A DNA stretch of 64,000 bases from the human T2T-CHM13v2.0 reference genome, Homo sapiens (GCF_009914755.1 NC_060928.1); one strand, 5' to 3'; shown: positions 524 through 61,631, counted from the first letter of the stretch. The notes: generated by a model not told the origin, from the sequence alone. Program-made: numbers and translations.

Positions 524-529
524 CCTTCT

Positions 530-4815: not shown

Positions 4816-5870
4816 TTGTCCTATATATAGAGTTTACTCAAAGTATATAACCACGTCTTTTAAATTTTTGGTCTTCACACTCCTATTAGGTCTCTTCTTG
4901 ATAGTCTCATCTCATTTATAATCTGTAGCATTTCTTGATTTATGGGAAAAGCTGCTGCCATGAGTAGCTTCTTGTCTTCGCTTCTTTTGAACTTCAGTGT
5001 TTTCCCCATCACCACATTCAACTTTTTTTCTCACACTCCTAAAACATGTCACATACACAGACTTTAGAACACATTCCATCCCTTCTGCCTAGTGATTTCA
5101 TTATTCTATAAATGGACACTTCTATGTTCTGAGTATTTGTTTTTAAGCAAGTAATTGTTCTATTCAAAATCAAATTATTGAGGACCCATGAAAGACAGAA
5201 AATGAAAACATTGCAATGTGATATTTAAACACAAACTTACCTGATGTTCATATTTCAAATAACACCTGTAAATTCACCAACAGAAAAAGTGTCTGATATT
5301 GTCCTTCACTGTTTTTTCACGTGTCATTTTATTTATTTATTTTTGTTATTATATATATATTTTTTATTATACTTTAAGTTCTAGGGTACATGTGCACAAC
5401 GTGCAGGTTTGTTACATATGCATACATGTGCCATGTTGGTGTGCTGCACCCATTAACTTGTCATTTACATTAGGTATATCTCCTAATGCTATCCCTCCTC
5501 ACTCCCCCCACCCCACAACAGGCCCCGGTGTGTGATGTTCCCCTTCCTGTGTCCAAGTGTTCTCATTGTTCAATTCCCACCTATGAGTGAGAACATGGGG
5601 TGTTTGGTTTTTTGTCCTTGTGATAGTTTGTTAAGAGTGATGGTTTCCAGCTTCACTCATGTCCCTACAAAGGACATGAACTCATCCTTTTTAATGGCTG
5701 CATAGTATTCCATGGTGTATATGTGCCACATTTTCTTAATCCAGTCTATCATTGTTGGACATTTGGTTTGGTTCCAAGTCTTTACTATTTATTGTGGCAC
5801 GTGTCATTTTAAGTAAAGAAAGATGATGTTCACAATAAAACAATGAGAACTATTTTAGCTTTGGCGACAA
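4816..5870 (-). pseudogene. Fossil hAT/THAP12-like gene block, interrupted by the L1PA insertion at 5332-5797
   Basis: After removing the L1 and one TSD copy, one frame reads HCFIVNIIFL..RTISDT..VI*NMNIR*..ISHCNVFIFCLSWVLNNLILNRTITCLKTNTQNIEVSIYRIMKSL..MF*EC..KKRRQ..NLKDVV, co-linear with recalled THAP12 (DGINSDTNIRWNN..VSDFDFIV..VLHSL..WFEEA..ELKDIF). Confidence 0.6.
5332..5797 (-). mobile_element. 5'-truncated L1PA (L1PA4/5-like) 3' end
   Basis: ttattatactttaagttctagggtacatgtgcacaacgtgcagg... 3' UTR. Perfect 14-bp TSD cacgtgtcatttta at 5318-5331 and 5798-5811. Confidence 0.93.
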
Positions 5871-12049: not shown

Positions 12050-14330
<2,281 letters not shown>

Positions 14331-14340
14331 GAGTTTAGCA

Positions 14341-15110
14341 TGGTTTGTAAAGTTTATGATAAAAATTGTCTGTGTGGTGAATTCAAAAATTTCAGTATTA
14401 CATTTCATTATGCAGTCTGAAATCATTCGTCTGGTATTCAGAGATAAATAGATTTAAAGAATCCATGAGTTATCTTTATTGGGATCAGTGCTTTTTAAAT
14501 CTTGGCTAAACAATTTTTTTCCTACAGAAAATGGAAATTTCTACTTAGATGTTCTCCTTTTAGAAAAAAATATTTTAAATGGTTCAGTTAAGCTTTTAAG
14601 TTTCATACTGTGACCATAAACAAAAATTTAAAATGTCAAACTGTCTCTATTCTTATTTGCCCATTTTTTTTTTTTTGCTGCTCTACTTATCTGTATTTAC
14701 TTTGTATCAGCATTAGTAGTACTCAGGTTCTATCAAGTAAGAATCAATTGAATAATTGTAATCAATATACTATAAATACATCCTAAATGTAATAAAGCAC
14801 AATTTAGAAAAAAAATTCTTATGAATGGGTTTCATTGAAAGTAGGTCATTTTTTCTTTGCTGGATAGTACATTTTTCTAGTATTTATAAAGCTTGCTCTG
14901 CTGGCAGTTAATTCATGGCCCCAAAATACAGAATATAAATTACTGTTCTTGTTGCATGGAGCAGAGAAACATCTGCTGGTTATTAACATAACATTTGAAT
15001 CTGACAGAATTCAGTTCTGGTTTGTAAAGTTTATTACAAAAATTGTGTGTGGTTAATTCAGAAGCTTTAGTGTTACTTTTTATTGTGGTGCTTAAAATTA
15101 TTCTTCTGAA
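14341..15110 (-). pseudogene. Fossil hAT/THAP12-like gene block (N-terminal DUF4371-like part)
   Basis: Fragments HFKFLFMV, RNFHFL*EK (cf. DNFQALLE) and QTA**NVILKFLNS (cf. KTQQRQMLEICES). Contains an internal ~93-bp diverged repeat. Confidence 0.4.
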
Positions 15111-21535: not shown

Positions 21536-21870
21536 CTAGATAAAAGCACCCTTTAAATATTTTCTCTTCAAAAAATTGAGTAAAAGCATTCCTTAATGCA
21601 GCATCTATACTGATTTATTCCAATTAAGGACCAAGTCTGCCATAACAGCTTAAATTTGAAATACTTAATTAAACTTCTTAACATTCATTATCACACTTCA
21701 AATTTCATTTCATCCTTTTTCTGATATAGATAACTTAGAAAATAAATCAAGATTTATTAAAAATCACAACGAATGTTTATTTCAAGTATTTGATGGTATG
21801 GACAACCAATTGAAAAGCAAGTCTGCAATAACAGCTTAAATTTGAAACAATACTTGTATTATATACTCAT

Positions 21871-23526: not shown

Positions 23527-24250
23527 TCATCCCAGTTCCTGACTGAAGTCAGACAGCTTATTAATTTCAAGTATATAGTCTACTTCATCCTAGCTCTACC
23601 CCACTTCATGTTTAGCTTTCCTTCCTGACTGCTGCTCACTATAGAAAAAATTCCACTATAAACAAAGCTTAAATATTACTGTCAATGAAACAGACATTGG
23701 TCTACTACCATTTGCTAATAGAACAGCCTTACATATATTTCTGCATTAGCTTCTGCAGTTGCATAAGGTCTAAACTTTACAATAAAAAACTTATTTTATG
23801 TCAATATCTACATCAGTGAATCACTTATTTTATAATTTATGTTGCTTCCATTTCTCTGATAAAATGCTGACTGATACATGGCTAAGGTATATGACAGTTT
23901 TTCACTCAATACATATATGTATGTTTAAATATAAGATATAAATACATAGTAGCAACACAACCAAAAATGTCTCTGAGAATTTTAATCAATCTTCATATCT
24001 GAGCATTATCAATGGAACAGTACTGAATGTAGATACAATTTACAAAATGCTATCATAAGCTATTTTGCATAATAACTGCCAAATAAAGTTCAGATTAGAA
24101 GTGTTCCTCTGAGTTAAACACATAAGAAAAGTCTGTAATTTAACGAAGTTAATTAAATTTACAGTAGTAAAACTGGATCTAATTGAATAATGAATTGAGT
24201 AATAAAATATATTACCATATCTTATAAAAAATTGTAATTGAAGAGTCATT
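23527..24250 (-). pseudogene. Fossil block joining the middle of one module to the start of the next
   Basis: VKLQTFLMCLTQRNTSNLNFIW..IVSTF..LKFSETF, then CISQHFIREME, FRPYATAEANAEIYVRLF (23733-23774) and GKLNMKWGRAR (cf. LQALVLCLDGINSDTNIRW; FLPYEADAEILAVKF; GLNMEYCRGQ). Confidence 0.75.
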
Positions 24251-24883
24251 TATGGATTAGAAATAGTGAACATTTTAAAACTTGGAAGGTTCATTATTTA
24301 TCCAGAATCCAGCTCCCACACCAACACAAACATGCAAAAAACACCTTCGTTTAGATTTTTTAAAGACATTAAAAAGTCCCAATATTATAAAACATATTGA
24401 AGTATATGTTTATTACTGGTACCTCTGTGAGCAAAGTTGCTTGTAAAACAACACAAACAAATAAACGGTGAAATGGAAAGTAAATGACTGGGCATGTAGA
24501 AAACATTACATTTAAAAAAAAGCTGCTACACCAAAAATACCACTATTAACAAAGTTTAAGTATTACTGATAACAAAATGGAAAAGGCAAAATTTATGAGA
24601 CAAATATCACAATACTGAATAAGAACTTTCATATAGGCATTAAGAAGATTAAAGAAAAAAGCAAATCATCTTTTAAAAAATAACCCTTGTAATGAAGAGA
24701 CAAATAAATGTTGATAAGTTGATTAAATGTTGATTAACATTTAAGACTAGTATAACGTTAACACTATAACTTCTTAAGGATAGGAAAAGCAAAAATACTT
24801 AAAAATCACCATTATTTTGCTTAATATCTTAAATTTTTGGAGGTCTTACAGATATTCAGGTCATAGTAATTATTTTTGAATAC

Positions 24884-27496: not shown

Positions 27497-30400
27497 TGTT
27501 TAGTAAATACAAGGTGAGGTACCCAGATCCCATGCCTCCAGGGCTGAGGCACTCATTTGCCCAGATGCTGGTGCGATATTGGCAATATTGACAGCTGTTA
27601 GCGGAGTTCCTTGCTGGGAAATTTACTGGATTGAAGAGGCTACTTCACCTAAGTTTATGTCTCCGTGTGAAAGAGTTCAGTGATTTCTTGATGGGCATGT
27701 AAATAGCCTGGCTCTTCATCCCAATTACAGACGTGGCTAAAACTCTAACCCATCTCCATATTTTCTCATCAGGTGAACTGAGAACTTTTAGGCAACTGCC
27801 TTGTAGTTCAAGCTCTTGCTCTGCTTGACTTCACTTACTATACTTCCTGAAAGTTTTTGGTCTTTAACTTTTACAATTATTTGAATATCAATTTTCACCC
27901 CAGAGGCTGCTTCAAGAGAAACCAGACCTATGATTTCTGGTCCAAAGTTTAGTCAGGATAAAGTAGTTAGAAAGTGGACTTTTACATGTGATTTTGTAGC
28001 TTGTTTACCCAATGCCTCACTGGCAATGTGGTCCTCATGAGTTGTGATAGGTGGAGCATGCAACAGTAATATGTTTGTTAAAATTTTCATTAATGGTGAC
28101 CTGCAATAGTTTATCAGTGCAAGAGAATTATCTTGAGTATAAAATATATTATGTACTTGAGAAATAGTGAGATATAATAATTATATGACACTTAAATCTT
28201 GGGAAATCCATGCTTTGCAGGAAAGAGAAACACTTAGGAAAATTAGTCATCCATTAAAAGTTAAGTTTGAAAGCCAGAAGATATCTCTGGCCACATACAG
28301 AGAGACTCCAGTATCCTGCACCAGAAAGCAGAAATAGATGAGGAGAAGGCAAAGAAAGAAATTATAAGACAAGCAGTTATAAAGGTGTTGTTTTATTCTC
28401 AATTAGGCCATCATGTATGTCTGATCAAGCCCCTGTTAAAAAGATGAAAGCCTAAGATTGGAGACGGTATAACTGGATCAATGCAGATGAAAATATTAAC
28501 TCAAACATATTCCTTTGAATCATTTTACCCCATTGAATCAGTCAATTTCTCCCCGATAAAGATAGTGCTAGTACCTTGCCTAAGAAAAATATGGACACCT
28601 CTACCTTGCAAAACAACACATATTTACCTTAAAAGGCACTTGTTTTATTTTCTTGGTCAACAGATTAAAAACTAGAGCTGTTTCAAGATGTAATACAGCC
28701 AGGAAAGTTTGATATCTTCTATGATTAAAAAAGGTCAAAACTTTGAAAGAGCCACAAAACATTCAACATGCACCAGCAGGGGCAAAGAGAGTATAGCAAA
28801 TCCTGAGAAATGGGGAGAATTAGATTTCCAAAGTTACCACATTATTAGATTAAAGTATAGTTTTCAACAACAACAAAATTACAAGGCATACAAATAAGCA
28901 GGAAAGTATGACCCATTCAACAAAAAAAATAATAAACCAACAAGTCTGTCCCTTTAAAACACCTGATGGCAGATCTACTAAACAAAGATTTAAAATAACT
29001 ATTTAAAGATGTTCAAATAATTAAAGAAAGTTAAGAAAATATTGTTCAATCAAAAAATAAACATCAATAAAATTAAAAAGAAACTGTAAAGATAAAAGGT
29101 ACAAATACAATTTTAAGAAATCACTAAAGGGATTCAATGGCAGATTTAAGAATCAGAAGAAAAAAAAATCAGCATTCTTAAAGATAAAACAATAGAAATA
29201 ATTAATCTGATGAGCAGAAGAAAAAAAATTGAAGAAAATTAAACAAAGTTGTGGAACACAATCGAGTGGTCCAAAATACACACTCTGGAATTCTTGGAAG
29301 GAGAAGACACAGAGACAAGGACAAAGAAAAAATTTGAATAATTAATGGCTGAAAACTTCCAAATTTCATAAAAGACAGGAATATAAACACTGAAGAATCT
29401 TAAAGAACCGCAGGTAGGATGACTTCAAAGGAAACCACACCCAGACACATTATAAGCAAACTTTCAAAAAACAAAGGGAATTTTGAAAGCAGCAAGAGAG
29501 AAGCAAATCATTACATCAAAGTGACCCTCAATAAGATGAACAGATTTCTGATCAGAAACTTAAGAGACCAGAAGGCAGGGAGCTAACATATAAAAAAGGT
29601 CTAAACAAATCTGTTAACCAAAAATCTTATCTTCAACAAAACTTTCTCTCAAAAGTGAGGTAGAGATTAAGACATTCTGAATAATCGAAAACAGAGGAAG
29701 CATGCTACCAGTAGTCCTGTCTTTCAATAAATGTTCCAGGGAGTCATGCATGGTAAAATAAATAGCACCAGAAAGTAATTTGAATCTTTGTGAATAAATA
29801 AAGATTTGAATATAGGTAAGTAAATACACAGGCTATTATAAAGATTAGTATTATTGAAACAATAGTTTGTAACTCTACTTTCTGTTTTCTATATAATTTG
29901 AGAGACTAATACATGTTTAAAACAATCTGAGAGCTAGTATTATTGTAGCTATGGTTTGTTGTAACACCACATTTTGTCTTTTATGTAAATTAAGAAACTA
30001 ATGTCTTTAAAATAATCATTAGTTTATATTTTTGGACACACAATGTATGAAGACGTAATTTTATGACATCAGCAACTAAAGGAAGTATTGGAATTAAATT
30101 TGAAAAATTTAAATGAGTGTATTAACTTCAGTATGCTAAATATAATTCCTGTTGTAACCACAAAGAAAATAGGTAAGTAACATATACAACAGGAAATCAA
30201 GTAGGAATTTGAACGTTTCACTACAAACACACACACACACACAAATGAACATATTTGCCACAGTGCCTCCTTTATCTATAGCTTCGAAATATCTCCTGTA
30301 GAAATGGCAAGAAAATGGCTTTGAAGGTGCCTCCTTCTCCATAACGAAGGCAGAAAATCAAAATTGTTCTTGTTTTCCGAGGAGAATAGCAAAGATTTGT

Positions 30401-31490
30401 ACCATTCTTAACAACCTAAAGGATACAGGGATGGTGAGATACTATTATATCACACTTAACTCACCAGTCTGTTTTTTATGAAAAACCTGAGAGATCATTG
30501 GGTATGACAGTAGATTATCACAAATACAATTCATTTGTTCCCAAATTGCAGCTGCTGTACCAGATGTGCTCTCTTTGCTAAAGCATGTAACTACAGCCTC
30601 AAGTACACATAATGCATTTATTACCCTGAAAAATTCATTATTAACGACCTCTATCAAGGAAATAAATTAAAAACAGTTCACAATGGACACTGTGAACAGC
30701 CATGAATATTTATATCTCATTTCAGTGCTATATTAACTTGCCACTGGCTTCTGTTACAGTATATTATAAAACAAAATGTCATTTGGGAACTCTGTGGAAC
30801 ATCACTTTTTTGTATGATATCTCTGTTTTCGTGTTAATCAGATCAGATAATTTTAAAAATGACTATAATTTAGAGGTCTTGGTAATGCAAATGCTGTGCA
30901 AAATTAGAAAATAATTCCTATCAAGTTTCAGGAATCTATCACATCATGAGAATGTTAGCAGTCCTGGTAATCTGAGGTTACACAGATAGGCCCAAAAGTG
31001 TAAAAGACAAATGGTTGTACCTCATTCTTTCCACCACTAAGAAGGAATCACCATGCTTCTCAGGCTTCTTTGGATTCTGGAGGCAGCATATTCCGGATTT
31101 AGGGATATAAATTTGACTCACGTAACCAATGAACAAAAAGACTGGTGGGGCCAATATAAGCTGTAAGGTGGCTTAGAACCTCATTTCATTTCTCCTGCAG
31201 TTGTGCTGGCTTCTGTCTGTCTGCTCAGACCTATGATGAAACAGGTGTTTCTTAGAATATATGGAGAAAAATGTAGGCTTCTTTAATAAGTGGACCCACT
31301 GAAATATGCCTACAAGCCCTGCCTCTCACAAAAGACTGCAGTTGCATTACCACTTCCTTAGAGATACCTCTGAAAGACAGCAGTGAAGGAAGCCCAACCC
31401 CCTCTCTCCTTCCCCCAGCAGGGAAGAACTTTGTATGATGCATTTCATCACCCACAAGTTGAAAGAGGCACATAGTGTATGCAACCCAAA
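27497..31490 (+). mobile_element. LTR16C-like LTR (27497-27934) with ERVL/ERV3-16-type internal remnants, interrupted by L1
   Basis: cccagatccc..gaggcactcatt..ccag.tgctg LTR16 motifs. RT-like remnants near 30400-30620 (NLKDTGMV, TVDYHK). Confidence 0.7.
28765..30226 (+). mobile_element. Old L1 ORF1 region fragment
   Basis: atggctgaaaacttccaaattt, ccacacccagacacattata and gaaagcagcaagagagaagc are L1 ORF1 motifs. Confidence 0.8.
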
Positions 31491-31836: not shown

Positions 31837-34800
31837 CTAGACCACAAAAATTAAAACCTTCAAAATATATCTTCTTTGTTGTATGTCTTATTTTATATTT
31901 AGTATATGTGCTCTTTTCTGATATTAATGGTCTGTTAACATTGCTGATCATCAGGAAATCATCCATTGCAATGTGTGCAATTTATGTAGGCAGTAGCATC
32001 TGAGGTACACATTTTTTATGACTGAAAATGGTCACACCTTTCCTTCTGCTAGGATTTTTATACAGACATTTGTACTAATCAACTTAGCATGTGAATTAGT
32101 TTGTGATTTGCTGTTAAGTCTATACCTATTTTTAGTGCTCCTTGGCTTTCACATCCTGTAGAAACAGCTTGTGTCTAGGGTGAAAGGTGGTTTACCAGAG
32201 CATGATTTAAAAAACATATTTATGAAATATATTTATGTTTATCTTTGTGTTGTGTCTCAGAATGTGTACCTTTGCAAGTTCTTATTGCTCTCCTGTCCCT
32301 CTCTTAGCACTTGTTATTTGAAATTCATTACTTTGGCTGAGGGGCTTAATGGGGCCCCTGTATGTGGCTTGGTTTGAATCTTTGTGGTTGTAATAAAGTT
32401 ATCCTTCCCATGGTATCACCACTTCTATAGTCTAGACAGTGGAGACTTCCTTTTCCTGTCTCTCCCCTGCCTGTCCTACTTGGGGTCAGCACTTAAACTC
32501 ACAATTCCTTCCTGAATTGTGCTCACTCTCCCTCTTCTTCCCTTCTCCCAACTGTAATAAGTATTCATCAATATCTTAAGGTCAGCAGTGTTCCATTTTG
32601 TCACCAATTAAGGCTTTTATTCCATAATGGAGAGAGAAAAAAATTTCTTCACTGCAGAAATTTCTGTTGAACAGAACTAATACAGAGTTCATTGCCCACA
32701 CTGCAGCTGTGTTCACTTTTTGAGAACTCTTCTCTGTCTACCTGCTGAGTCCATGGCAATGGGCCTATAAGGGGGGAGTGCAGACTCCCCTCTTTCTGGA
32801 CCTTCAAGGATTTTCCCACTGTCTTATAAGCCCAAACACAGCCTTTTCCAATTTGTTACCGGTCTTAAATGAATTTTTTTTTACTAGTATCACTTTTTAC
32901 CTGTATCTACCTTCAGATGATCATGGGTGCAAATCTCCTTTCTCCCTGGAGATACTTTCTATCCTTAGATTTTGGGCCAGTTGTTTTCTCTCTTTCCATA
33001 GGTTTTTCAAATCTATGAAAAATTTGAAAGAAATGTCAACAATTAACTGTGGATTTCTTCTAAGGATTGGAGAGAAGCTACTCCTTCTCTCCAGATCCTA
33101 GGGTAGAAAATAATTATCTTTGTGTCTGAAGAATACTATCTTTTGTTACACATAAAACTCTACATATAGTTTGTCTTCTCCGAGCACATTAAAAATGTCA
33201 GTCCTTTGACTATTGGCCTTACATTTTTTTTATATACTAAGAAAAAGTATGTGCTTCTACCTAATCTCAATCAGATTATCACACTTAAGAAATTTAATAG
33301 AGCCTTAAAGGGCAGAACAAAATGACCCACCTTCTCCCTGTGACCCCCTGAACACCACATTGAATAGCCATCCATACAAGGAAGCACCTTCATAAGAGCC
33401 TAAAATCAGGTGAGCAATCACAGTATCTGGTTTTAACGTCATATCAAGGAAAGAGAAACTGAAGAGCGTAGAAAGGACAGTCTTGAATTGCAGATAAGAC
33501 AGCTCTCCCATCTCCCAGCAAAAACGAGTGACTCAGAGACAGAATCTGTGTGCTTGATGGGTAGAAATCTCAGTAATGGTGGGATTTTGCATTGGAACTA
33601 GTGCTTAATGTTGCCCTGTCACCGCAGAATGAAATGCAGAACAGAATTCAGCCAGAGCCCATAGGGACAACATTTAGACCAGCCCTAGCAGGAGGGAAAG
33701 TTTCCATCCTAGTGGTTGAAACCTGAGTTCTAGCTAGCCCCACCACCACAGGCTAAAGTATTCTGGGGTCCTAAATGAATTTGAATGGTGGCTGTGAGGA
33801 CTACAATTTCTAGGGAAGTCCGGGTGCTGTGCTGGATTCAGAGCCAGTAGATTTGGGGTATATATTACCTATGAGATACCAGTGGGGCAGCCAAAAAAGT
33901 GTTTGTGTCACCCCTCCCCCAACCCAAGGCAGTGTAGCTCACAGCTCCAGGACAGACTCCTTCCTTCTGCTGGAGGATAAGAGAGGGAAGAGTAAAGAGG
34001 ACTTTGCAACTTAGATACAAGCTCAGCCACAGTAGGATAGACTACCAGCAATGTCCTGAGCACTACATGCAAGGCCTTAGCTCCTGGACAATATTGCTGG
34101 ACACACTCTGGGTCAGAAGGGAACTTGCTGCTTTAAAGGGAAGAACCACGTCCTTGCAAGATTCATCACCTACTAACTAAGGGGCCCTCAGGCCATGAAT
34201 AATATTTGTGTTACCCAGACAGTATTAGCCACCAGCATCGGGTAGGACCCAGGGCTGTTCTGGCTTCAGGTCATACCCAGCTCATTCTTAGCTGTGTTGG
34301 CCTTGGCGAGAGCTTCTGTCTGCTTGAAGAAAGGAGAGGAAAGAGCGAGGTCTTTGTTTTGCAGCTTGGGTGCTGACTCAGACACAGTAGAATAGAGCAC
34401 CATGTAGATTACTAAGATTCCTGATTCCAGACCCTGGCTCCTGGGCAGCATTTCTGAACTCACCCTGGGCTGAGAGGGAGAGTTCACTGCCCTTAAGGGA
34501 AGGACAAAAGCCTAGTATGATTTGCAACCTGCTTAGTGAAGAGTCCTTGGGCCTTGAGTGAACATTGGTAGTAGCCAGGCAGTGATACTGCAGGTATTGG
34601 GCAAGTTGCAGTACGGTCTTGGCTTTGCATATGAACCAGCACAGTCCCAGTGGTGGTGGCCACAGTGAAGACTGATTGTTTTAACCCTTCCCACAACCAG
34701 GCTGCTCAGCACAGAGAGAGAGACTCCATTTGTTTGGAGGGGAGTAAGGGAAGAAAGCAGGAGTCTTTGCCTGGTAATCTAGGGAATTATTTTGAGTCTT

Positions 34801-41009: not shown

Positions 41010-41725
41010 AAACAAAATCCAACTTCAGTTTAAGTAAAACCTTTCCCCATAATTTGCTTCAATCAGTAATAGTGAGCATTTCTTTAATTATAATTCAGGA
41101 AAAATAAGGTTCTAGGAATGTATTATTTACTATTAAATATTACTAAGTTAGACTGAAATAATTATCATGATATATTTATTAACATCCCTATCTACAGAGA
41201 AAGACAGAGAAGTTTGGTATAATTATTTCACTAATTGTGAAGGGTCAAACTACCACTTGAAAACACTGTATCTGGTTCTAAATCCCGACACACCACTTAT
41301 TTCCAGGAAGGAATAGAAGGGAATACTCTGACTTTGTATTTCTTGGCACCATTCTCCAATATATTTTGTATTTGAAAGAGGATTTGGCATGTCTCTATAT
41401 AAAAATAATCCAAGGAGGAATACATTTAACACAGTTTTCTAATAAATTACTTTCCAGCTTCTGCAACCATAACATACCAGCAACTTAATTCATAAACTCT
41501 CAAGATAGTGACTTTGTCCATAAAACTCATTTATGCATTAATACAATATCCTCAGCAAGTTATGAACCTCAATAAAAGTGAGAGATTAAAGAATAATTAA
41601 AATAGTTTTTGTTTGTGTAAGGTGAGGCCTTTCACAGTAGAAATTATAAAATATACAATCTCAGCAAAAATATTTATTGCCTTTTGTATGTTGTTATTAA
41701 TTTTTATTATTTGAATCTGTTAGCT
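41010..41725 (-). pseudogene. Fossil block, C-terminal part of a module; paralogous to 61260-61631
   Basis: IQKAINI, VKCI, YSLLFLPGNKWCVGI*, PFTI..PNF and EMLTITD*..VLLKLKLD. Nucleotide homology to 61283-61613. Confidence 0.65.
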
Positions 41726-41759
41726 TAGAAAATGACCTATTCTGTCTGTGCACAGATCT

Positions 41760-44060
41760 TTCTTTCTTTTTATGATTTCACTGCTTATTTCACATATGGG
41801 GGGACATGTGAAGATTTGTTACATTGGAATATAGCATTATGCTGAGGTTTGGAGTCTACACAATCCCATGATCCAGGTAGTAATCATAGTACCCAATAGG
41901 TAGTTTTTTAACCCATTCACCCTCCGCTCTTTGTTATTCCAAGTGTCTGTTGTTCCCACATTTATGTCCATGTGTGATCAATGTTTAGCTGCCACTTCTA
42001 AATAAGGACATGTGGCATTTAAATTTCTGTTTCTGCATTAATTTGTTTAAGATTATGGTCTCCAGCTCAATCCATGTTGCTGCAAAGGACATGATTTCAT
42101 TCTTTTTATGGCTGTGTAGTACTCCATGATGTATATATGCCACATTTTCTTTATCCACTCTGCCACTGATGATCACCTGGGTTGATTCCATGTCTCTGTT
42201 ATTGCGAATGGCACAGCAATTAACACACAAGTGCATAAGTCTTTTTGATAGAATAATTTACTTTTTTGAAGGGGGTATTTACCCAATAAGAGATCTGTTG
42301 AGTAAAATGGTAGCTCTGTTTTAAGTTCTTTGAGGAATCTCCAGACTGCTTTCCACAACTGCTAGACTAATTTACATTCCCACTAACAGCGTATGAGCAT
42401 TCCCTTTTCTCTGCAGCCTTGCCAGCAACTGATGTTTTTTGACTTTTTAATAACAGCCATTCTGGTGTGTGACATGGTATCTTATTGTGGTTTTAATTTG
42501 CATTTCTCTGATGATTAGTGACACTGAGCATTTTTTCATGTTTTTTGGCCACTTGTATGTCTTCTTTTGAGAAGTGTCTATTCATATCCTTTGCCTATTT
42601 TAAATAGGGTTGTTTTTTGCTTAATTTGTTGCCTTTGTCAGATGCATAATTTGTGAATATCTTCTTCCATTCTGTAGTCATCGGTTGCTCTGTTGATAGA
42701 TTTTTGGTTTTTGTTGTTTTTTGTTTTCCCTTTCCCTGAGCAGAAGCTCTGTAGTTTAATTAGGTCCTATTTGTCTATTTTTATTTTTATTGAAATTGCT
42801 TTTGGAGACATAGCCAAAAATTATTTGCCATGACTGATGTTGAGAAGAATATTTCTTAGATTGTGTTCTAGGATTTTTATAGTCTGATGACTTATATTTA
42901 AATCTTTGATTCACTTTGAGTTAATTTTTGTACATGGTAAAAATCAGGTGTCCAACTTCAATCTTCTGCATATGGTTAATCGATTATCCCATCACAATTT
43001 ATCAAATAGAGAATCCATTCCCCATTTCTTGTTTTTATCAGCCTTGTCAAAGATCAGATAGCTGTAGATGTGCAACTTTGTTTCTGGGTTCTCCATTTTG
43101 TTCTATTTGTCTATGTGTCTGTTTTGGAACCAGTCCCAAGGTGTTTTGCTTACTGTGGCTTTATTCCTGGGATGTGAAGCAATAAATGTAATTCACCACA
43201 TAAACAGAATCAAAAGTGAAAGCCATATGATCATCTCAATAGATGCAGTAAAAGCTTTCAGTAAAATCCAACATCTTCATAAAAACCTCTCAACAGATTA
43301 GGCATCAAAAAACATACCTCAAATAATAAAGCCATCTATGTCAAACCCACAGCCAATATCATACTGAATGGGCAAAAGCTAGAAACCATTTGCCTTAAGA
43401 ACTGGAAAGAAACAAGGAAGCTCACTCTTACCACTCCTATTCAACATAGCACTAGAAGACCTAGCAAAAACAATCAGGCAAAAGAAATAAATAAAAGGTA
43501 TCCAAATAAGAAAATAAGTCAAACTATCTCTGTTCACTGACAGTAAGACCCTATACCTAGAATATCTTAATCTTTCAAAAGGCTTCTAAAACTGATAAAC
43601 TAGTTTAGTAAAATTTTAGGATATAAAATCAATGTACAAAAATCAGCAGCATTTTATACACTCAACAAGATACAGGCTGAGAGTAAAATCAAGAACACAT
43701 TCCACTTACAATAGCCACAAAGAAAATCAAATATCTATGAATATAGCTAATGAAGGAGGTGGACAGTCTCTACAAGGAGAACTGCAAAACACTGCTGAAG
43801 GAAATCAAAGATGACACAAATAAATGGAAAAATATTTTATGCTTATGGATTGGAAGAATCAATATCATAAAAATGGCCATAGTGCTCAACTCAATTTACA
43901 GATTCAATGCTATTTCTATCAAACTACCAATGTCATTCCTCACAGAATTAGAAGCGTTATTCTGAAACTCATATAAAACCAAAGGAGAGCCCAAATAGCT
44001 AAGACTAAGCAAAATGAACAAAACAGGAGGCATCACATTACCCAACTTCAAACTATACTA
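41760..44060 (-). mobile_element. L1PA/PB-type 3' portion with 5' inversion (41760-43160 antisense; 43161-44060 inverted)
   Basis: The inverted piece ends at ...cttcaaactatacta, directly adjacent in L1 coordinates to the start of the non-inverted piece. Confidence 0.85.
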
Positions 44061-44096
44061 AGAAAAGTTTGATTGAAAAAAGATTTTAAGTATTAC

Positions 44097-44323
44097 CTTT
44101 CTTAAAATTTTAAATTTACTGTATCTCTCTTTAATGCAGTATTTTTCTTCAATTTTACTCATATTTTCTGTCTTTCTAAAAGTTGTGATAAAATGTTCCA
44201 TATATCATAATGAATCCCTGTTATTTGGTGGCTGTTGAGTTTTCTGGATTTTTGGAAATCAAATATCATTACCTTAGACAAAGCAACATTATTTCATCAA
44301 TATAAATATATGATCTTCAGTGC
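44097..44323 (-). pseudogene. Fossil exon, middle of a module
   Basis: cttatttcag| acceptor and aag|gtaata donor. TEDHIFILMK and IDEIMLLCL..TATK*QGF. Confidence 0.5.
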
Positions 44324-44343
44324 CTGAAATAAGAATCCCTATG

Positions 44344-51061
<6,718 letters not shown>

Positions 51062-51254
51062 AAGAATCCCTATGCTTATGTACAATTATTCATAATATTT
51101 TTCAATTTTCAATTTCCTGAGTTACTTCATGTATCTATTCCTTATAATTTATTGATACATTTACTTACTGAAAATTTATTATGTTAAGCTTCCAAAACAA
51201 ATGGTAAATATTATGTATGATATTTCTTCATCTATTTTATACCTAATCATGGAA

Positions 51255-51425
51255 GCATAGAGGAAAGGGCATGGTTTTGAATCCAAGATGTCTTGAATTT
51301 GCATCATGGCGCATCCAATTATTCTGTAAACTTGGTCAAGACACTTAACCTCTCTGAGATTCAGTATACTAATATATAAAAAGGAATACTGATAATTCTA
51401 TCAAAATCATTGAAATATTAAAAAT
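51255..51425 (+). mobile_element. MIR fragment
   Basis: aacttggtcaagacacttaacctctctgagattcagt MIR core. Confidence 0.7.
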
Positions 51426-51529
51426 AATATATTTTGTTTTTCACATCCCATATATATTGTATGATAGGTATTATCTAATTTAAAACACACGGATTCAAAT
51501 TTACATACTTTAATCTGTGCTAACTTTGT

Positions 51530-51935
51530 AGTCAACATTTATGTAAATAATTTTCTGAAAAACAATATTTACATTATTATTAAATTATGCCTTATATATT
51601 GATTATAGCTGTTTTCTCTCCATCCTAGGCTTCCGTTAATAAATGTGAGTAATGTAAAATTGGTTTTAATAGATTCTAGACTTTTAAGATTCTCAGCCGG
51701 TTTCATTTTAAATATATATAACATTAATATATTTTTGGATTTTTATATATTAAAATGGCCAAAATAATTTATACATCAGTATGTCTGCCATGCAGCACAA
51801 TGTGTGTGTATGTATATCTAGTCAAATAAATACTTAATTATTTTCTTTTTCTTTTTATATACTTAGCTAAACTGAAAGTACATGTCCATGTAGCTACAAA
51901 TATTATGATTTACTATCAGAGAAATTTTCATTATC
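51530..51935 (-). pseudogene. Fossil block containing hAT CxxH-position motif
   Basis: IHTHCAAW (51788-51811), then LLTFINGS and NNVNIVFQ (cf. generic hAT HCxAH; THAP12 CSFFHRS, DNVISVLFQ). Confidence 0.5.
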
Positions 51936-51944
51936 TTTGAAAGG

Positions 51945-52448
51945 GGAAGTTGAGCCCTAGTCCTAAGCTCTGAAGATTGATGTGGAGTACCAGAATCTGA
52001 CTTACTTTGTTGGCATAAGGCAGAAGCTGAGTCTGAACTTCTCTAGAGACCTTTTAATGTCTCCATTCTTCTTCTCTGATTTTGAACCATTTATATGTAC
52101 AACTTCATGACAAAGGGCAAAAGGCTGTGATGTAAGTTGGTCGTGTTGCTACAATTAGAGTTCATGAGAATCATAACTGAGTTCTACTCTGACCTCATTA
52201 GTTCTAGTTTTCTTTGTTGGATCTAATTGGTTCACACACTCTCTTACTTTCTGTATAGTTTCTCTTTGTAATTACTGCTACTCTTGACCTTCAGTGACTT
52301 CAGGCTCACCATAATAAAAAGATAAAAGAGCTTTCTATAGATATTGTCACTGGATCTCATAAATCCATAAGATCTAATTTCTATAATAAATACTTTGTTT
52401 CATATCAGTCCTAGCGGTTTTACTTTGTTAACTGAACTCTGATATACA
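51945..52448 (+). mobile_element. ERVL-class LTR (LTR33/LTR41-like)
   Basis: 3' end ctataataaat...catatca..c.tag.ggtt...gaactctgatATACA. Confidence 0.55.
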
Positions 52449-55400
52449 AATTCTAGATATGTCCTGTAGATAGAAAAATCTATAAAGCAAAGTGATAAAT
52501 AAAATTAAATAAGCAATGATAATAGAAAATGACAAAGGTTTATTATACAAGTCCAAACAATAAAAAAGTGGAGACTGCCACCTTGAAATAAAGCAAAGGA
52601 TACTCAAGCCCCAAAACCCTTACTTCCTGAGAATATAGAATATGCTTTCATCTGCAGTGCACATAGCTCTTCCAGAAAATTTGATACTATTATAGTTTGA
52701 CAATAAAATGTTTAACAAACTTTATAAAATAAAACCAGTAAAGATAAAACAGACCGCAAATGAAATATATATATATATATTTTTTTTTTTTTAAATAAAG
52801 AAGAGATCCTTAGACTTGTGGCTTTATCCTATTACACTATAGTGCTCAGGCTAATAAGGAAATTTTTTAAAAAGTGAAAGTTTATAAAAAGTAATGGTAG
52901 TCATTAGGGTTTCTGGCTCTGCATGTAAGGAGCACCCAAGTCACCATCCATACTAAAACAAGTAAATATATGAACAGACTGAAGTATCAACAACTCTTCT
53001 GGGATCTTTAAGAGAGATATGGATACAGGAAGAATGGCTGCAACCAAGACTGGAGAGTCAGACAGAAAAACATAGGAAATCATGGCTTACTGGGGCAGAG
53101 ACTAAAAAATGGAAATCACCAAGGAAATCAGCACTGGGATGGGAAAACTTAAACTGCAATTGACAAATTTTTGGAGGCTCACTTAGGACAAGCCGTAGAG
53201 TTATATACCCCAAGGGGCCCCACAGTTTTGTGAGTTTTACCTCCAGGAACTTGACCAGCTTATCATGGTATGTATTGGGGTGGGGGGATCTCTTTACGCT
53301 TCCGGCAAGGAGAGGAGAAAAGCAAGCATTTTAAGATACGCCAGAACACTCTGTTCTTACTAGGAAAGTCTGTCTTAGGAAAGACTATTTGACCAGAACC
53401 TATCTTGGCGGGATATTATAAAAGCCAGACTAACCTGGGAGAAGGGAAATACCCAATTCCAGTTGGCTCTAGCCTTTCCTGTGGAGGAAGGAAAATACTG
53501 AACTCTACCCCACTCTAGCTATCAATCCCCACCTCAGGATAAAAGGAAAAAATAAGAAACACTTGTGAATTTTCTAGTACAGACGTTTAGGCCCACTAAA
53601 TGACTGAGATGTAATCAGAAGATCATAGGATTACAGAAGGCTTTCTGCTCCCTTCCATACTTTACTGTCATGTTATTAAAAGCCTATTTACAGCAGTTTA
53701 TTTTAGCTGCTACATCATGCTCAGCCATGCAAAACAAAACAAAACAAAACAAAACAAGGCATACTAGAAGGTAAGAACAATTTGAAAAGGCAGAGCAAGC
53801 AGCAAAACCAAACAAGGTAGGAATGCTGGAATTATCAGACCTGGAATTGAAAATATTTCTAAATATTTCTGAATAATATGCTTAGGGGTCAAATGGATAA
53901 AGTAGACCGCATGAAAGAATACATGTGGAAAATCAGTAAAGAAGTGGATATACTAAAAAAAAGAACCAAAAAGAAATGTTACAGATAAAAAATTTTGTAA
54001 CAGAAATATTAATAAATAATGCCTTTAATGGCCTTATTTATACTTATGGTGTGGCTCAGAAAAGAATCTCTGAGCTTAGAATAGAAACTTTCAAAACTGT
54101 AAACCAAAGAGAGTGAAGATTGAAAAAAAAAGAGAGAATATCTAAGGGCTTTGGAATAACTACAAAACATTTAATATATGTGCAATTGAAATACTAGAGG
54201 AAAAAAAAGAGAGAAAAAAACAGAAGAAATATTTGAAAACATGTGACAGGTAATTTCTTCCAATTTGTTTCAGACGCCAAAGCACAAATCCAAGAAGTTC
54301 AGAGAATATCAAGCAAGATAAACACAAAATATATATATATATAGACATATCATTTTCAAATGACAGAAAATCAAAGATAAGAGAAAAAATCCTGAATGAA
54401 ACTAGAGGGAGAAAAAATACCTTTTATAAAATAAAAATGAAAATTATATTTAACTTCCCTCAGAGTCAGTTGCACTATCTGGTAACCAAGGCTGTAGACT
54501 GAAGTATTTAAAAGTAGTGAGAGAGCAAACATCTAACCTAGAATTATGTGTCCTAAAAAATTACCCTTGAAAACAGAAAATGAACTAAATACTTTTTTAA
54601 ACAAAATAAAAACTGAAGTCACTTATTGACAAATTTGCCTTGCAAAAAAGGTTAAAAGAATTTCTTTAGACAGGATCTATTAATGTGGGACATTGAATCT
54701 ACATTGAAAAAAGAAGAGCATCAAATAAAGAATAAGTGAATAACAAATAAAAACCTTTTATCCTTGATCTAACATATAATGGTTTATTCAAAATAAAAAT
54801 AGCAATATGTATTCAATTATATATACTTATGTATGTATCATATATAAAAAATATAAACATATGTTATATATCCTTATATATAAGTAAAATGAATGACAGT
54901 AATGGCATAAAAGATGAGAGGGAGGAATTAGAATTATTTTGTTATCAGAATATACTCATACTACCCATGTAGTGGTATAGTGTTATTTGAAAGTGGGCTT
55001 TTACCGGTTTTCAAGGTATATTCAAACTCTCAGGCAATCACTAAAAAATACATAAAAAGAAATATAACTTATATGACAAGGAAAGAGAAAAAAAATATAC
55101 AAAGTGCTCAATTAAAACCACAAAAGAAAAAGGGTAGATGACAAAGAGACAAAGGAAAAAAATAAAAAGCAATAATAAATATAGTAGATATTAACCAGAA
55201 TATACTAATAATCACTTTGAATAGCAATGGTATAAATGCATCAATTAAAAGACAGTAATTGTCACAGCAGACCAAAACTCAAGACCCAGTTATATGCTGT
55301 TGACAAGAAACATACTTTAAATAAAAATATAGAGGCTAGTTCATGAGATTTAAGAAAGGAAGCTACCTCCATAAATAAAAGTGCAAGGTGATGCAGCAAG

Positions 55401-55791
55401 TGCTAATATAGAAGCTGCAGCAAGTAATCTAGAAGATCAAGATAAGATAATTGATGAAAATGATTACACTAAAGAACAGATTTTCAGTGTAGATAAAACA
55501 GTTTTATATTAGAGAAAGATTATAAATCAATGGAAGAAAAACATATAATGCTAACACTAATCCAAAGAAAGTGGGAGTAGCTATATCAATTTCAGACAGA
55601 GCAGACTTCAAGAAACATTTTTAGGGATAAAGGGCATTAACTAACAATAAAGGCGACAAGGCTACAAGAACACACAGCAATACTTGACATGTATGCGTAA
55701 TACAGCATCAAACAACATGAGGCAAAAACTTACAGATCTGCAAGGAGAAACAGATGAATTCACTATTGTAATTGGAGACCTTAATAACCCT

Positions 55792-57886
55792 TGTAATTAT
55801 TTGGGAGTACCATGAAGTAGACCTGTATAAGGCAAAATAAATGTTATTAGTGTTCAGAATGCTCCATTGACCAGATTTTTCTTCATCTCTCTCCCTCTTC
55901 TTGTGCCTCCCTATTCCTGAAGACACAACAATACTGAAATTAGGCCAATTAATAACCTTGCAATGGGCTCTAAGTGTTCAAGTGAAAGGAAGAGTCATAC
56001 TTCTCTCACCTTAAATCGAAAGCTAGAAATGGTTAGGCTTGGCATGTCAAAAGCCAAGTAGGCCAAAGCTAGTATTTTTGCAGGAAAACATTAGCCAAGT
56101 TGTGAAGGCAAAATAAAGTTTTTGAAGGAAATTAAAATGACACTCTAATGAACACACCCATGATAAGAAAGCAAAACAGCTTGATTGCTAATATGAAGAA
56201 AGTTGTAGTGGCCTGGATAGATGAAACCAGCCACATCATTCACATATACTAAAGCCCAATCCAGAGCAAGGCTCTGTCTTCAGTTCTATGAAGGGTAGGA
56301 GAGGCAATAAAGCTGCAGAAGAAAAGTTTGAAAGCAGAGGTTGTTTCCTAAGATTTAAGAAAGCAAGCTGCCTCATAAAATAAAAGTACAAGGTGATGCA
56401 GAAAATGCTAATATAGAAGCTTCAGCAGGTGATCCAGAAAAATCAAGCTAAGATAATTGATGAAATGACTACACTAAAGAACAGATTTTCAGTGTAGATA
56501 AAATAGTTTTATACAGGAGAAAATGGCATTGAGGATTTTTACAGCTAGAGAGAAAAAGTTAATGTCTGGCTTTAAAACTTCAGAGTTGGACTTTCTTGTT
56601 AGGGAATAAGGCAGCTGGTGACTTTACACTGAAGCCAATGCTCATTTGCTATTTCGAAAATCTTAGGACCTTAAGAATTATGCTAAATCTAATCTGCCTA
56701 TATTCTATAAATGGAACTGCCAAAGTCTGGATGACAGCGTTTCTATGCACAGCATAGATTACTGACTATTTCAAGCCCATTCTTGGACCAACTGCTCAGA
56801 AAAAAACAATTATTATAAAATATTATTGTTCAGTGACACTAGTCACCCAAGATCTCTGATGGAGATTTACAAGGAGATTAATGTTGGTTTTATGTCTGCC
56901 AGTACAACATCTATTCTACAATCTATGGATCAAAAAATAATTTCTAATTTCAAGTCTTATTATTTAAGCAGTATATTTTGTAAGGCTATACCAACCATAG
57001 TCATTCTTCTGATAAATTTAGGCAATGTAAATTAACAACTTTGTGAAAAAGAATCACCATTCTAGATGTAATGAAGACCATTTATGATTTATGGGAGTAC
57101 GTCAAAATGTCAATGTTAGCATGAGATTGAAAAAAGTCAGTTTCAACCCCCAAAGTCAATGACTTTGAGGGATATAAGATTTGAGTGGAAGAGGTAATTG
57201 CAAAGTGGTGGAAATTGCAAGAGGGCTAGAATGAGAAGTGGAGCTTGAGGATGTAACTGAATTGCTCTAATCACACTATCAAACTTAAATGAATAGGGAG
57301 TGGCTTATGATGATGAGCAAAGAAAGTGGTTTCTTGGGATGGCATTTAGTCTTCATGGAGTTACTGTGAACATGGTTGAAATGACAATAAAAATTTTGGA
57401 ATATTTCATAAACTTAGTTTGTAAAGCAATGATAAGGTTTCAGAGGACTGAATCCAAGTTCTGTTAGTAAAATGCTATCAAACAGCATTTCCCGCAACAC
57501 AGAAATCCTTCACGAACGAGTCCGTCATTGTGGCAAAATTTATTGTTATCTTATTGTTTTAAATTTCCACAATGACCCCAAACTTCAGCAACCACAACCC
57601 TGACTAGTCATCAGTCAACATTTATGCAAGACCCTTCATCAGCAAAAAGATTAAGACTCACTGAAGGCTTAGATTATTGTCAGCATTTTTTAAAAACAAA
57701 ATATTTTTAAATTAAAATATGTCCTTTTTCAAAATAATACTATTGTGCATATAGGCTACAATATAGTACAAACATAACTATTATGTATACTGAAAAACCA
57801 AAAATTTGTTTGACTCATTTTATGGTGATACTCACTTTATCACAGTCGTCTGGAATGATATGAGAAATATTGATGAGGTAGGCTTG
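55792..57886 (+). mobile_element. Tigger1 (pogo-like DNA transposon), left end missing
   Basis: ctaagtgttcaagtgaaaggaagagtc..ctcac.ttaaatc.aaagctagaaatg transposase start. Right TIR-like gaggtaggcttg followed by TA. Confidence 0.9.
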
Positions 57887-59760
57887 TACTTTACCCAACA
57901 ACAGCAGAATACACATTCTTATCAAGCTCATGTGGAACGTTTCACTAAGATAGATCATATTCTGGGCCATAAAACACACTTAAAATTTTAAAATAATAAA
58001 AATTACACAATATTTAATCTCAGAAAACATTGGATTTAAACAAGAAATAAATGACAGAATGATAAATTTTAAAATCTCCAAATATGTAGACATTCAACAA
58101 CACACTTCTAAATAACACACAGACTAAAGAAGAAATAGCAAGAAACATTTTAAAATATATCAAGTTAAAGAAAAATAAAAATACAAGACAAAACAACATA
58201 AAAATTGTAAGGTACAGTAACAGTAGGGCTTAGAAGGAACATTTTATAATTGAATGCATATATTAGAAAAAAACAAAAATCTAAAACCAATAATATAAGT
58301 TTCCACCTGTCCGAACCAGAAAAGAAGTGCAAACTAAATCAAAAGTAAGCAAAAGAAAATAAATAATAAATATCATAGGAGAAATTATTGACATTGAGAA
58401 CAGGAAATCAATAGAGAATATCAACAAAACCAAAAGCAGATGCTTTGATAATACCAATAAAATTGATAAAACTCTTATCTTGTTATCTAAATAAAAAAAG
58501 AGAAGAGACAAATTACTTTCAGAAATCATAAAAGTAAACATCACTTCAGATCCCATGGACAATAAAAGGAGAATAAAGGAATACTACAGAAAACTTCATG
58601 GTCACAAACTTGATAACATGTAGGAACTGGACTAATTCCTTGAAAGACACAATCTACCAAACTCACACAAGAAGAAATAGACAATTTAATTGAAGAAACT
58701 GAAAAAATAACTAATAATCTTTCTGAATGGGAAGCATGAGGCCCAGATGGATTCCCTGAAGAATTCTACGAAACATTTAAGAAAGAAGTTACTCCAATTG
58801 TTTTTACAATTTCTTTCAGAGGACAGAAGCAGACTTTCTGACTCATTCTATGAGACCAGCATTACTTTGATAACAAAATAAGACAAGGAAATTTCAAAAA
58901 AACTAAACTATAACCAATGTCTCTCATGAACATAGATGCAAAAATCCTCAAAAAAATACTATGAAGACAAATTCAATAGTGTATAAGAATTACACACAAC
59001 AACCAAGAGGGATTTATCTCATTTAGGCAAAGCAATTTGAACATTTGAAAATTCATTGATGTAATTTACTATATCAATAAGCTAAAAAAAATCACATGAT
59101 CATGTCAATATATGCAAAAAAGCTTTTAACAAAATTTAACAACCATTCATGTTAAAAAAAATCTCTCAGTAAACTAGAAATATGGGAAAATGTCCACAAC
59201 TTAATAAAGTGTATGTACAAAACAATATTATAAGTAACTTCATACTTAATGATGAGAAAGTAGAAGATTTCTCATTAAGTTAAGGCAAGACTATCCCCTC
59301 TTACCACTTCTTCAATCTCATACTGTAAGTTCAAGCTAATGAAATAAGATGAGAAAGGGAAGTAAAAGGAGCACAGATTGGGAAGGAATAAATATATTTT
59401 TTAATTCACAGATGACATGATCATCCCTTTAGAAAGTTTGAAAGAATTGACAAAATACTCTAGGAACTAATAAGTGATTATAGCAAGGATTTAGCATACA
59501 AAGTCAGTACAAAAAATTCATAGCTTTCTGTAAAAAGTTTCTTTGTAAATATAAGAAACAAACAAGTGCAGTTTGAAATTTAAAAAATAATTTAAAAATA
59601 AACTAATAAAACATTTATATTAACATCCTAAATAATGAAATACTTAGGTATAAATGTAAAAATGGTATACAAGATCTATATGAAAAAATATAAAACTGAT
59701 TAATAAAATCAAATAACTATACAAGTGGAAATACATTTTATGTTTATAAATAGGAAGACT

Positions 59761-60379
59761 TGTTGGGGAAAAGCTGAGTGTTGGGAAAAATGCTGAGGTA
59801 GGGCTTGCATGTCTGACATAATGTAAAAGAGTCTTGGAACATGTCTGGGGTCCAGGGTCTAAAACCCCTTGTGGCCTTTGGAACACCAAGCTCTGTGCAA
59901 AAGGGTGGAAGGGTGCCCCGCCACACCACAATCTAAGCCCAGGGCATAAAAAGCCTCATGGCTTGGATGGAATCCAGGGCTCAGGGCATAAAACCCCCTG
60001 TGGCCTCTGGAATGTGTCTAGACTTGCTGGCTCCTTGCTCCTAGCACTCCCAGGTTCATAGATCAATTGTATCTTAAACTAGAACATGTTTCCCATTACC
60101 TCAAGTAGCAGAACATGTTCCATATGCTTCAGAGAAAATGCTAAACCATCACAGCTGTAGATCATGCACTTGATACACTGCTTTCTTTCAACCTTCACAT
60201 CCTCACCACCTGATTCTTTGTTTGATCACTAATAAATAGTTTGGGCTTCCAGAGTCAGGGGACTTTGCAGCCTCCATGCTAGCGTTGGCCCCCTGGTCCC
60301 ACTTTATGCACTCTTGTCGTCTCATTCCTTTGACTCCACCAGCCCCCACAGCCTGGTGTTAGGTCTGATCAACCCAACA
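59761..60379 (+). mobile_element. Solo LTR14-family (HERV-K14 group) LTR
   Basis: TGTTGGG...CCCAACA termini, internal aataaa, perfect 6-bp TSD aagact at 59755-59760 and 60380-60385. Confidence 0.88.
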
Positions 60380-61259
60380 AAGACTCAATATTGTCAAGAT
60401 GTCTGTCAATTCTTCCCAATTTGACCTATTGTTTCAATGCAATCCCAATTAAAATTCCAGTTTTTTTTGTGGACATTGACAAACTGATTCTAAAGTGTAT
60501 GTTGCAGAGGGAAAGATGCAAAATAGCTAACACGATACTGAAGGAGAAGAAAAAATTTGAGGGCTAACACTCTTGATGTTAATACTCCCTATAGAGCTAC
60601 ACTAAGGAGGACTGTGTAATACAGGCAAAATAATACACATATAGATTAATGGAACAGAATAGAGAGCCAAGAAATTGACCCACATAAATACAGTTAGCTG
60701 ATCTTTGAAAAAGAAGCAAAGGTAATATAATGGAAGTAATATAGTATTTTCAACAAATGATGCTGAAACAACTAGGCATCCAAATGCAAAAAATAAAAAT
60801 AATCCAGACATTGACCTTTCAAGTCCAGAAAACTGTCTTTAGTAAAATAATGCTCAATTACTACAAAACAACACAGAAAAAGAGGAAAAGAAAATAGCAG
60901 AATGATATACTGAAATCTGTTTCAATAAAATCTGTTTCTATGTACTTTGTTTAAATATTGCAAATAAAAATAGGGCTTGTGAGATTGTATTTAAAAAGCA
61001 GCACCTACTTATATCCTGCCTACAAATAAATACAACAAAACAAAACAAAAAAACAATAAAAGAAAACTTGGAAATCCATAAAAAAGCAAACCTTTAAATG
61101 CATAGATAGAAAAAGTTATATACAATGTTAACATTATACAAAGGAAGGCTGTTATAGCTGTATTAATAGCAAAGCAAATTTTAGGAAAAAATAATATTTG
61201 CAAGGATTAAAAAAGATTTCCAAGATATAGGGCAGAAAATAATAAATAAATATTTGGGT

Positions 61260-61631
61260 ATGCAAAATTAAAAACAACTTATAGAAATTTGGGTAAAATG
61301 TAGTGGACATAATTGTGAAGAGTCAAAGGACCCCTCAGCTAAACTGTGTCTGCTTCCAAATCTCTACACAACATTGATTTCTTTTCACACTACCACCACT
61401 ATTTCCAGGAAGATATAGAAGGTAATATGCTGGAATCATATCTCTTGACAGTGTTCATATATATAATTATATATATATATATAATATTTGAAAGTAAACT
61501 TAGAACTAAGAAGTAAAGCACATTTGACTCTAGTTTCTAATACAGTGGTGTTCTTTGGGAACAATAATATACTAGCAACTTGGTTCCTATACTTTTGAAA
61601 GACAGTTTGACTGTTGTGGCCAAATTTATAA
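61260..61631 (-). pseudogene. Fossil block, C-terminal part of a module, frameshifted by a (TA)n expansion
   Basis: RVKCALLLSS..YYLLYLPGN..CCVEIWKQ..LFTIMSTTFYPNFYKLF (cf. ALKCLSLVPS..YRSDLP..HCWRIKWKH..PSTI..FFPNVYALL). Confidence 0.7.

What the first reader, a model, noticed from the sequence alone, without database searches (positions are those of the whole stretch)
41208..61613. Diverged ~310-bp direct repeat 20 kb apart with frame-preserving indels
Seen: 41208-41515 aligns with 61283-61613. One ungapped block (41298-41348 vs 61400-61450) matches at 39/51. By-eye core indels are 3, 18 and 24 nt, apart from a (TA)n expansion. Several changes are synonymous in the VKC..FKY..LPGN..CV..FTI..PNF frame. 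Inference: the modules arose by internal duplication and diverged while still coding. This evidence does not depend on my recall of THAP12.
Basis: seen in the sequence. Interest (0 to 1): 0.7.

Follow-up and report, generated by a model that had tools for sequence, protein, structure and literature searches.

The report
Ancient short local duplication, non-coding
Two roughly 300-base stretches 20 kb apart in a region of human chromosome 4 with no annotated protein-coding gene are about 72% identical and show no significant protein-coding signal; they are most likely one old local duplication that drifted apart and was likely pushed apart by later LINE-1 insertions, which is ordinary.

Summary
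The repeat is real. 41232-41501 and 61310-61596 are 72% identical over 255 columns, far above controls. The coding reading does not hold. Formal alignment gives shifts of 24, 14, -20, 2 and -3 nt, so 2 of 5 keep the frame, against 12 of 61 in control repeat pairs. THAP12 does not match by three methods, and no protein relative was found. Five genome-wide pattern searches found no third copy; 0 of 45 inspected loci extend. That excludes a family of tens of copies at up to 20% divergence, but not a much older low-copy one. At least 15 kb of the spacer is LINE-1 with nested repeats. Best reading: an old (about 80 My, inferred) two-copy local duplication, like the published repair-mediated duplications, decaying neutrally. 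One weak hint remains: a plus-strand frame has dN/dS 0.46 and no shared stop (post-hoc P about 0.03), and the core has no 1-nt indels. Dfam and cross-mammal conservation could not be run.

The parts
41208..41510 (.). Copy A of the duplicated module (core 41232-41501; weak similarity may run on to about 41579)
61283..61606 (.). Copy B, same orientation (core 61310-61596)
61370..61399 (.). 24-nt excess in copy B (exact placement ambiguous)
61457..61482 (.). (TA)n run in copy B; net shift across this region is -4 nt, the one frame switch between the well-supported blocks
41760..44060 (.). LINE-1 insertion, one part inverted, in the spacer
44330..51063 (+). Full-length LINE-1 (85-86% identical to a young L1) with a 13-bp target-site duplication; younger than the A/B duplication
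52900..60830 (+). Old LINE-1 (58-63% to young L1) with a nested DDE_1 (Tigger-type, name recalled) transposon. 54508-60799 is tool-supported; 52900-54500 was read by eye as 5' region/ORF1
   Evidence: Pfam gave no ORF1 hit

Best explanation
The two stretches are about 72% identical direct copies with no significant coding signal, and are most likely the products of a single old local duplication of about 300 bp of non-coding DNA that has since decayed neutrally. Shown: homology, same orientation, sharp limits of about 300 bp, no third copy detected, 15 kb or more of LINE-1-derived DNA between them. Inferred: a copy of nearby DNA was captured, probably during double-strand-break repair (synthesis-dependent strand annealing), or a longer tandem duplication was eroded down to this core. 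Age about 80 My, from K2P 0.35 and a recalled neutral rate of about 2.2e-9 per site per year. Original spacing about 3-5 kb if all three LINE-1s came later, about 11 kb if the oldest was already there. No function is implied.
For: Homology. Two copies only: five patterns built from the shared blocks gave 42 non-self hits against 63 for reversed controls. 38 of the 42, plus 7 loci from translated searches, were aligned; none of the 45 extends (best score against copy A 2140, A vs B 7395). No third copy in the window or the 20 kb downstream. Spacer; residual non-L1 interval 2734 bp. Size, copy number and lack of a poly-A tail fit PMC2671141.
Against: No 1-nt shift in 228 well-aligned columns, where about 2.3 (all controls, P about 0.10) to 4 (LTR pairs, P about 0.02) are expected. 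One plus-strand frame has dN/dS 0.46 with no shared stop; joint post-hoc P=0.033. If -20 and +2 are merged, 3 of 4 shifts are multiples of 3 (P 0.03-0.11). ts/tv is 1.15 against 1.56-2.0 in LTR pairs. Repair breakpoints cannot be read at this age, and donor and acceptor are not identified. Pattern searches have little power against families 30% diverged (upper bound about 144 copies). Upstream of the window was not scanned.
Confidence: 0.68

Rival explanations
1. Two independent insertions of a very old, low-copy dispersed repeat (DNA transposon or LINE fragment) that happen to lie close together.
For: Chance proximity of repeat copies happens in this window: the retroviral-pol pair 9535-10460 / 30321-31264 also sits 20.8 kb apart. 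Search power is low at 30% divergence. Dfam was not run.
Against: A and B are 72% identical, so family members of the same age would be about 15-20% from their ancestor; the upper bound there is about 3-8 other full copies. No terminal inverted repeats beyond 8-11 bp AT-rich words. No LINE-1 ORF2 match, no Pfam hit, no Rfam hit near a gathering score.
Confidence: 0.12
2. Remnants of a lost gene or transposon reading frame on the plus strand (codon phase starting at 41201) that was duplicated and diverged partly while still coding, then decayed.
For: This frame has dN/dS 0.46, no shared stop and the fewest mismatches at codon position 2 (23/15/23); joint post-hoc P=0.033. No 1-nt indels in the core; 24, -18 (merged) and -3 keep the frame.
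Against: First and third positions are equally changed. Each copy has 2-3 stops of its own in the aligned blocks. No relative among 527 candidates in the 5.8-billion protein set, in the PDB, in Pfam or in the human genome. The mirror minus frame scores alike and also finds nothing.
Confidence: 0.07
3. A pair of duplicated non-coding elements (enhancer-like) kept under sequence constraint, and so older than the neutral clock says.
For: Few small indels and lowish ts/tv. PMC2671141 reports that 82 of 824 donors held a conserved segment.
Against: The longest exact runs (13, 11, 10, 9) are like those of neutral repeat pairs. The hub annotation lists no RefSeq functional element in the window. Conservation could not be tested here.
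Confidence: 0.07
4. One reading: THAP12/hAT-like coding modules on the minus strand that diverged under coding constraint.
For: A short FYPNFYKL stretch in copy B resembles the hAT dimerisation motif of THAP12 (best frameshift-aware score 36, ending at THAP12 fragment residue 549).
Against: That score is inside the control range (mean 30, max 46, n=60). A profile of 62 THAP12 homologues gives -2.5 and -3.5 bits while positive controls give 1126 and 130 bits. PF05699 does not ring here. dN/dS is at the null and a stop is shared. The three phmmer hits are tandem-repeat proteins whose E-values come from summing 4-12 weak stretches.
Confidence: 0.03
5. The 5' and 3' LTRs of one decayed provirus.
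For: Direct repeats of LTR size, a few kb apart before the LINE-1 insertions; an AATAAA lies at 41572.
Against: No solo copies elsewhere. No Pfam domain in the largest residual interval 51063-52900. GC is 32-33% against 36-43% for LTR-like pieces in the window. No primer-binding site or purine tract was seen by eye.
Confidence: 0.03

Closest known systems
Repair-mediated duplications (Pace, Sen, Batzer, Feschotte 2009, PMC2671141; I read the abstract, introduction, the first two results sections and find-passages)
   Same: Short (their proximal class up to 619 bp, mean 162), two copies on the same chromosome, no poly-A/T tail, non-tandem.
   Different: The copies are now 20 kb apart (their class: under 5 kb); a closer original spacing is inferred. 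This pair looks older than most of theirs (53 of 1,136 were shared with a non-primate mammal). No interrupted transposon or readable breakpoint signature. I did not check their Table S1 for this locus.
'Doublets', short paired duplications (Thomas et al., known to me only from the passage in PMC2671141)
   Same: Short local two-copy duplications.
   Different: The surveys cited there covered near-identical pairs under 100 bp; this pair is about 300 bp and 72% identical.
Segmental duplications
   Same: Intrachromosomal duplicate of unique DNA.
   Different: Defined as over 1 kb and over 90% identical; this pair meets neither.
THAP12 / hAT transposase C-terminal domain (PF05699)
   Same: Only an 8-residue motif likeness in copy B.
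   Different: No significant match by tblastn, frameshift-aware alignment, family profile or Pfam.

Membership tests
Repair-mediated duplication (PMC2671141) | Duplicated segment of 50 bp or more (observed maximum 619 bp) | tested here: met
   About 270-330 bp
Repair-mediated duplication (PMC2671141) | Found at only one other place in the genome | tested here: met
   0 of 45 inspected loci extend; holds to the power, 4 of 42 pattern hits not inspected
Repair-mediated duplication (PMC2671141) | Donor and acceptor within 5 kb | tested here: inconclusive
   20 kb today; about 3-5 kb if all three LINE-1s are removed, about 11 kb if the oldest predates the event
Repair-mediated duplication (PMC2671141) | No poly-A/T tail | tested here: met
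   Longest A or T runs near either copy are 5 nt; a tail could have decayed at this age
Repair-mediated duplication (PMC2671141) | Microhomology, filler or deletion at breakpoints, read against an empty orthologous site | not testable with these tools
   No other mammalian genome is held
Repair-mediated duplication (PMC2671141) | Acceptor interrupts a transposable element (their detection rule) | tested here: inconclusive
   Only a weak LINE-1 likeness left of B (E 1.6) and none right of it
THAP12 / hAT-derived sequence | Match to THAP12 or PF05699 | tested here: not met
Coding paralogues | dN/dS below the neutral null and third-position excess | tested here: not met
Coding paralogues | Indels are multiples of three | tested here: inconclusive
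   2 of 5 formal (P=0.26); 3 of 4 if two gaps are merged (P 0.03-0.11)
Dispersed repeat family | Match to a Dfam/Repbase consensus | not testable with these tools
Dispersed repeat family | Many copies genome-wide | tested here: not met
   not excluded for families about 30% diverged
LTR pair of a provirus | Internal gag/pol remnants and solo LTRs elsewhere | tested here: not met

The most novel reading that the evidence does not exclude
The two copies are the last readable exons or modules of an unknown lost gene (or unknown transposon ORF) on the plus strand, duplicated and diverged under coding constraint in early placental mammals, with no living relative in current protein databases.
Probability: 0.07. 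Interest if true: 0.45.

Novelty: new member of a known kind. Interest (0 to 1): 0.1.

Why it matters
If the best reading holds it matters little: over 800 short local duplications are already catalogued in the human genome (PMC2671141). It is a tidy example of how LINE-1 insertions can stretch an old close pair to 20 kb and take it out of such catalogues. It would matter more if cross-mammal data showed coding or regulatory constraint, because it would then mark a lost gene or a duplicated enhancer in a region with no annotated coding gene.

Tried and rejected
THAP12 and other human hAT-derived ORFs: no match. LINE-1 endonuclease origin of the module: scores 27-32 against controls up to 41, with positive controls 156 and 84. 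Pfam on 12 frames: one chance row at E 0.84. 5.8-billion protein set with plus- and minus-frame alignments, longer proteins only: 0 of 527 and 0 of 115 candidates, which the tool calls weak evidence. PDB: none, and one row at E 2.1. Translated searches of the human genome in three frames: beyond A and B, seven loci at E 0.07-7, none homologous as DNA. Direct DNA searches did not even recover the partner copy, so they carry no weight on copy number. Wider duplication: the four residual spacer pieces against the flanks of A and B gave nothing significant (best 5% of 140 null tiles). A 20.8-kb periodic structure: the other pair at that offset is two retroviral pol fragments. Terminal inverted repeats and target-site duplications at the module ends: only short AT-rich words. 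Literature: LOC105377253 gave 0 papers; the Zaphod/THAP12 search gave 0; two searches gave listings only, nothing on this locus. A language-model look-alike search and a profile scan of the whole genome were not obtained, so very remote protein or repeat relatives stay open. In one search two typed column totals for controls were slightly off (439 for 446, 376 for 389); the effect on the P values is negligible.

Full report
Observation. The window is human chr4 (G000:C4:66898001-66962000). A self-comparison finds the pair: 41231-41508 vs 61309-61605, nhmmer E 3.1e-16. A local alignment scores 231 against a maximum of 98 in 232 other tiles, and 7395 against at most 2511 under HOXD70 scoring. 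Identity is 72% over 255 columns, with 38 transitions and 33 transversions, K2P 0.35. GC is 32-33%. The homology is confined to about 300 bp: the four residual spacer pieces do not match either flank significantly.

Indels. A pair-HMM gives six confident blocks (228 columns) with shifts +24, +14, -20, +2, -3. So 2 of 5 are multiples of three, against 12 of 61 in ten control repeat pairs from the window (P=0.26). The net -4 across the TA region switches frame. Against my reading: the core has no 1-nt shift, where about 2.3 to 4 are expected (P about 0.10 to 0.02).

Codon test. Over five of those blocks (68-72 codons), dN/dS by frame is 0.67, 1.65, 0.46, 0.83, 0.72, 0.48. It has mismatches 15/22/22 at codon positions 1/2/3 and one stop shared by both copies. 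The lowest of six frames is unremarkable (P=0.47). A plus-strand frame and its mirror have no shared stop; a frame with both properties arises in 3.3% of shuffles, a post-hoc result. Stop counts per copy are as in shuffled sequence.

Protein identity. THAP12 was taken from the genome through PF05699 (L007; named). It gives no tblastn hit at either copy, frameshift-aware scores of 34 and 36 within controls (mean 30, max 46, n=60), and -2.5/-3.5 bits with a profile of 62 of the 120 listed homologues, where positive controls give 1126 and 130 bits. LINE-1 ORF2 does not match. Pfam on 12 frames gives one chance row. phmmer on 1.84 billion proteins gives three tandem-repeat artefacts. The 5.8-billion set gives 0 of 527 and 0 of 115 candidates for the two best frames, and the PDB nothing credible. 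Rfam gives nothing near threshold.

Copy number. Five patterns from the shared blocks gave 26, 3, 0, 1 and 12 non-self hits in the human genome, against 54, 0, 1, 2 and 6 for reversed controls. I aligned 38 of these 42 loci and 7 loci from translated searches. None of the 45 extends beyond the seed (best score against copy A 2140 vs 7395). The four uninspected hits carry the same or nearly the same word as two inspected ones. A simulation on the first four patterns bounds other full copies (95%) at about 3, 8, 31 and 144 for 15, 20, 25 and 30% divergence from the ancestor. No third copy lies in the window or the next 20 kb. Upstream of the window was not scanned, and Dfam was not available.

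Spacer. It holds three LINE-1 blocks. The first is 41760-44060, partly inverted. The second is 44330-51063, with a 13-bp target-site duplication and 85-86% identity to a young L1. The third is an old element, tool-supported over 54508-60799, with a nested DDE_1 transposon; its 5' part from 52900 I read by eye, and Pfam did not confirm ORF1. Removing all three leaves 2734 bp. The second block is clearly younger than the duplication. The third (58-63% to young L1) could be as old, so the original spacing is about 3-5 kb or about 11 kb.

Mechanism. Shown: two copies, same orientation, short extent, no poly-A tail, no significant coding signal. Inferred: one local duplication event, about 80 My ago (K2P 0.35 with a recalled neutral rate; similar to the 0.25-0.34 of LTR-type pairs), then neutral decay, a 24-nt gain and TA expansion in B (direction not established), and LINE-1 insertions. 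The likeliest route is capture of nearby DNA during double-strand-break repair, as described for 824 human cases within 5 kb and up to 619 bp long (PMC2671141; abstract, introduction, first two results sections and find-passages read; supplements not opened). An eroded tandem duplication is the alternative. It works like a repair-mediated duplication; membership is not established, because distance and breakpoints are inconclusive or untestable.

Novelty and verdict. I found no paper on this locus: LOC105377253 gave 0 papers, and searches listed nothing on it. The kind is well known. Interest 0.1. The lost-gene reading in the plus frame keeps about 7%.

Noticed in passing
window 9535-10460 and 30321-31264: Two decayed retroviral pol fragments (63-64% identical; RVT_1 E 2e-4 in the first; ERVL-type by recall) also 20.8 kb apart. 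The second overlaps the annotated lncRNA exon 31021-31230, antisense.
   Followed up: partly
window 55331-55517 and 56336-56522: 187-bp direct pair, 86% identical, 1 kb apart: a piece of the nested DDE_1 transposon sits separately inside LINE-1 ORF2. Possibly a second, younger repair-mediated duplication, and one that does interrupt a transposon.
   Followed up: no
window 33875-34770: About three diverged copies with a period of about 353-359 bp (66% identity), upstream of LINE-1 ORF pieces; looks like an old LINE-1 5' tandem array (recalled).
   Followed up: partly
window 4-542, 2462-2939, 4275-4828: Three related LTR-like pieces (73-79% identical), MaLR-type by recall; used as neutral controls.
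   Followed up: partly
window 14288-14434 vs 14956-15109; 21620-21661 vs 21806-21847; 23639-23690 vs 24526-24577; 29846-29927 vs 29935-30017: Several more short local direct pairs (42-150 bp, 74-88%), 89-887 bp apart; short local duplication looks common in this window.
   Followed up: no
window 51250-51450 and 51930-52450: MIR-like and LTR-like pieces (by eye, recalled) in the residual spacer.
   Followed up: no
L010 (G000:C3:86085148-86088354): THAP12 processed-pseudogene-like copy, 1126 bits with the THAP12 profile; used as positive control.
   Followed up: partly
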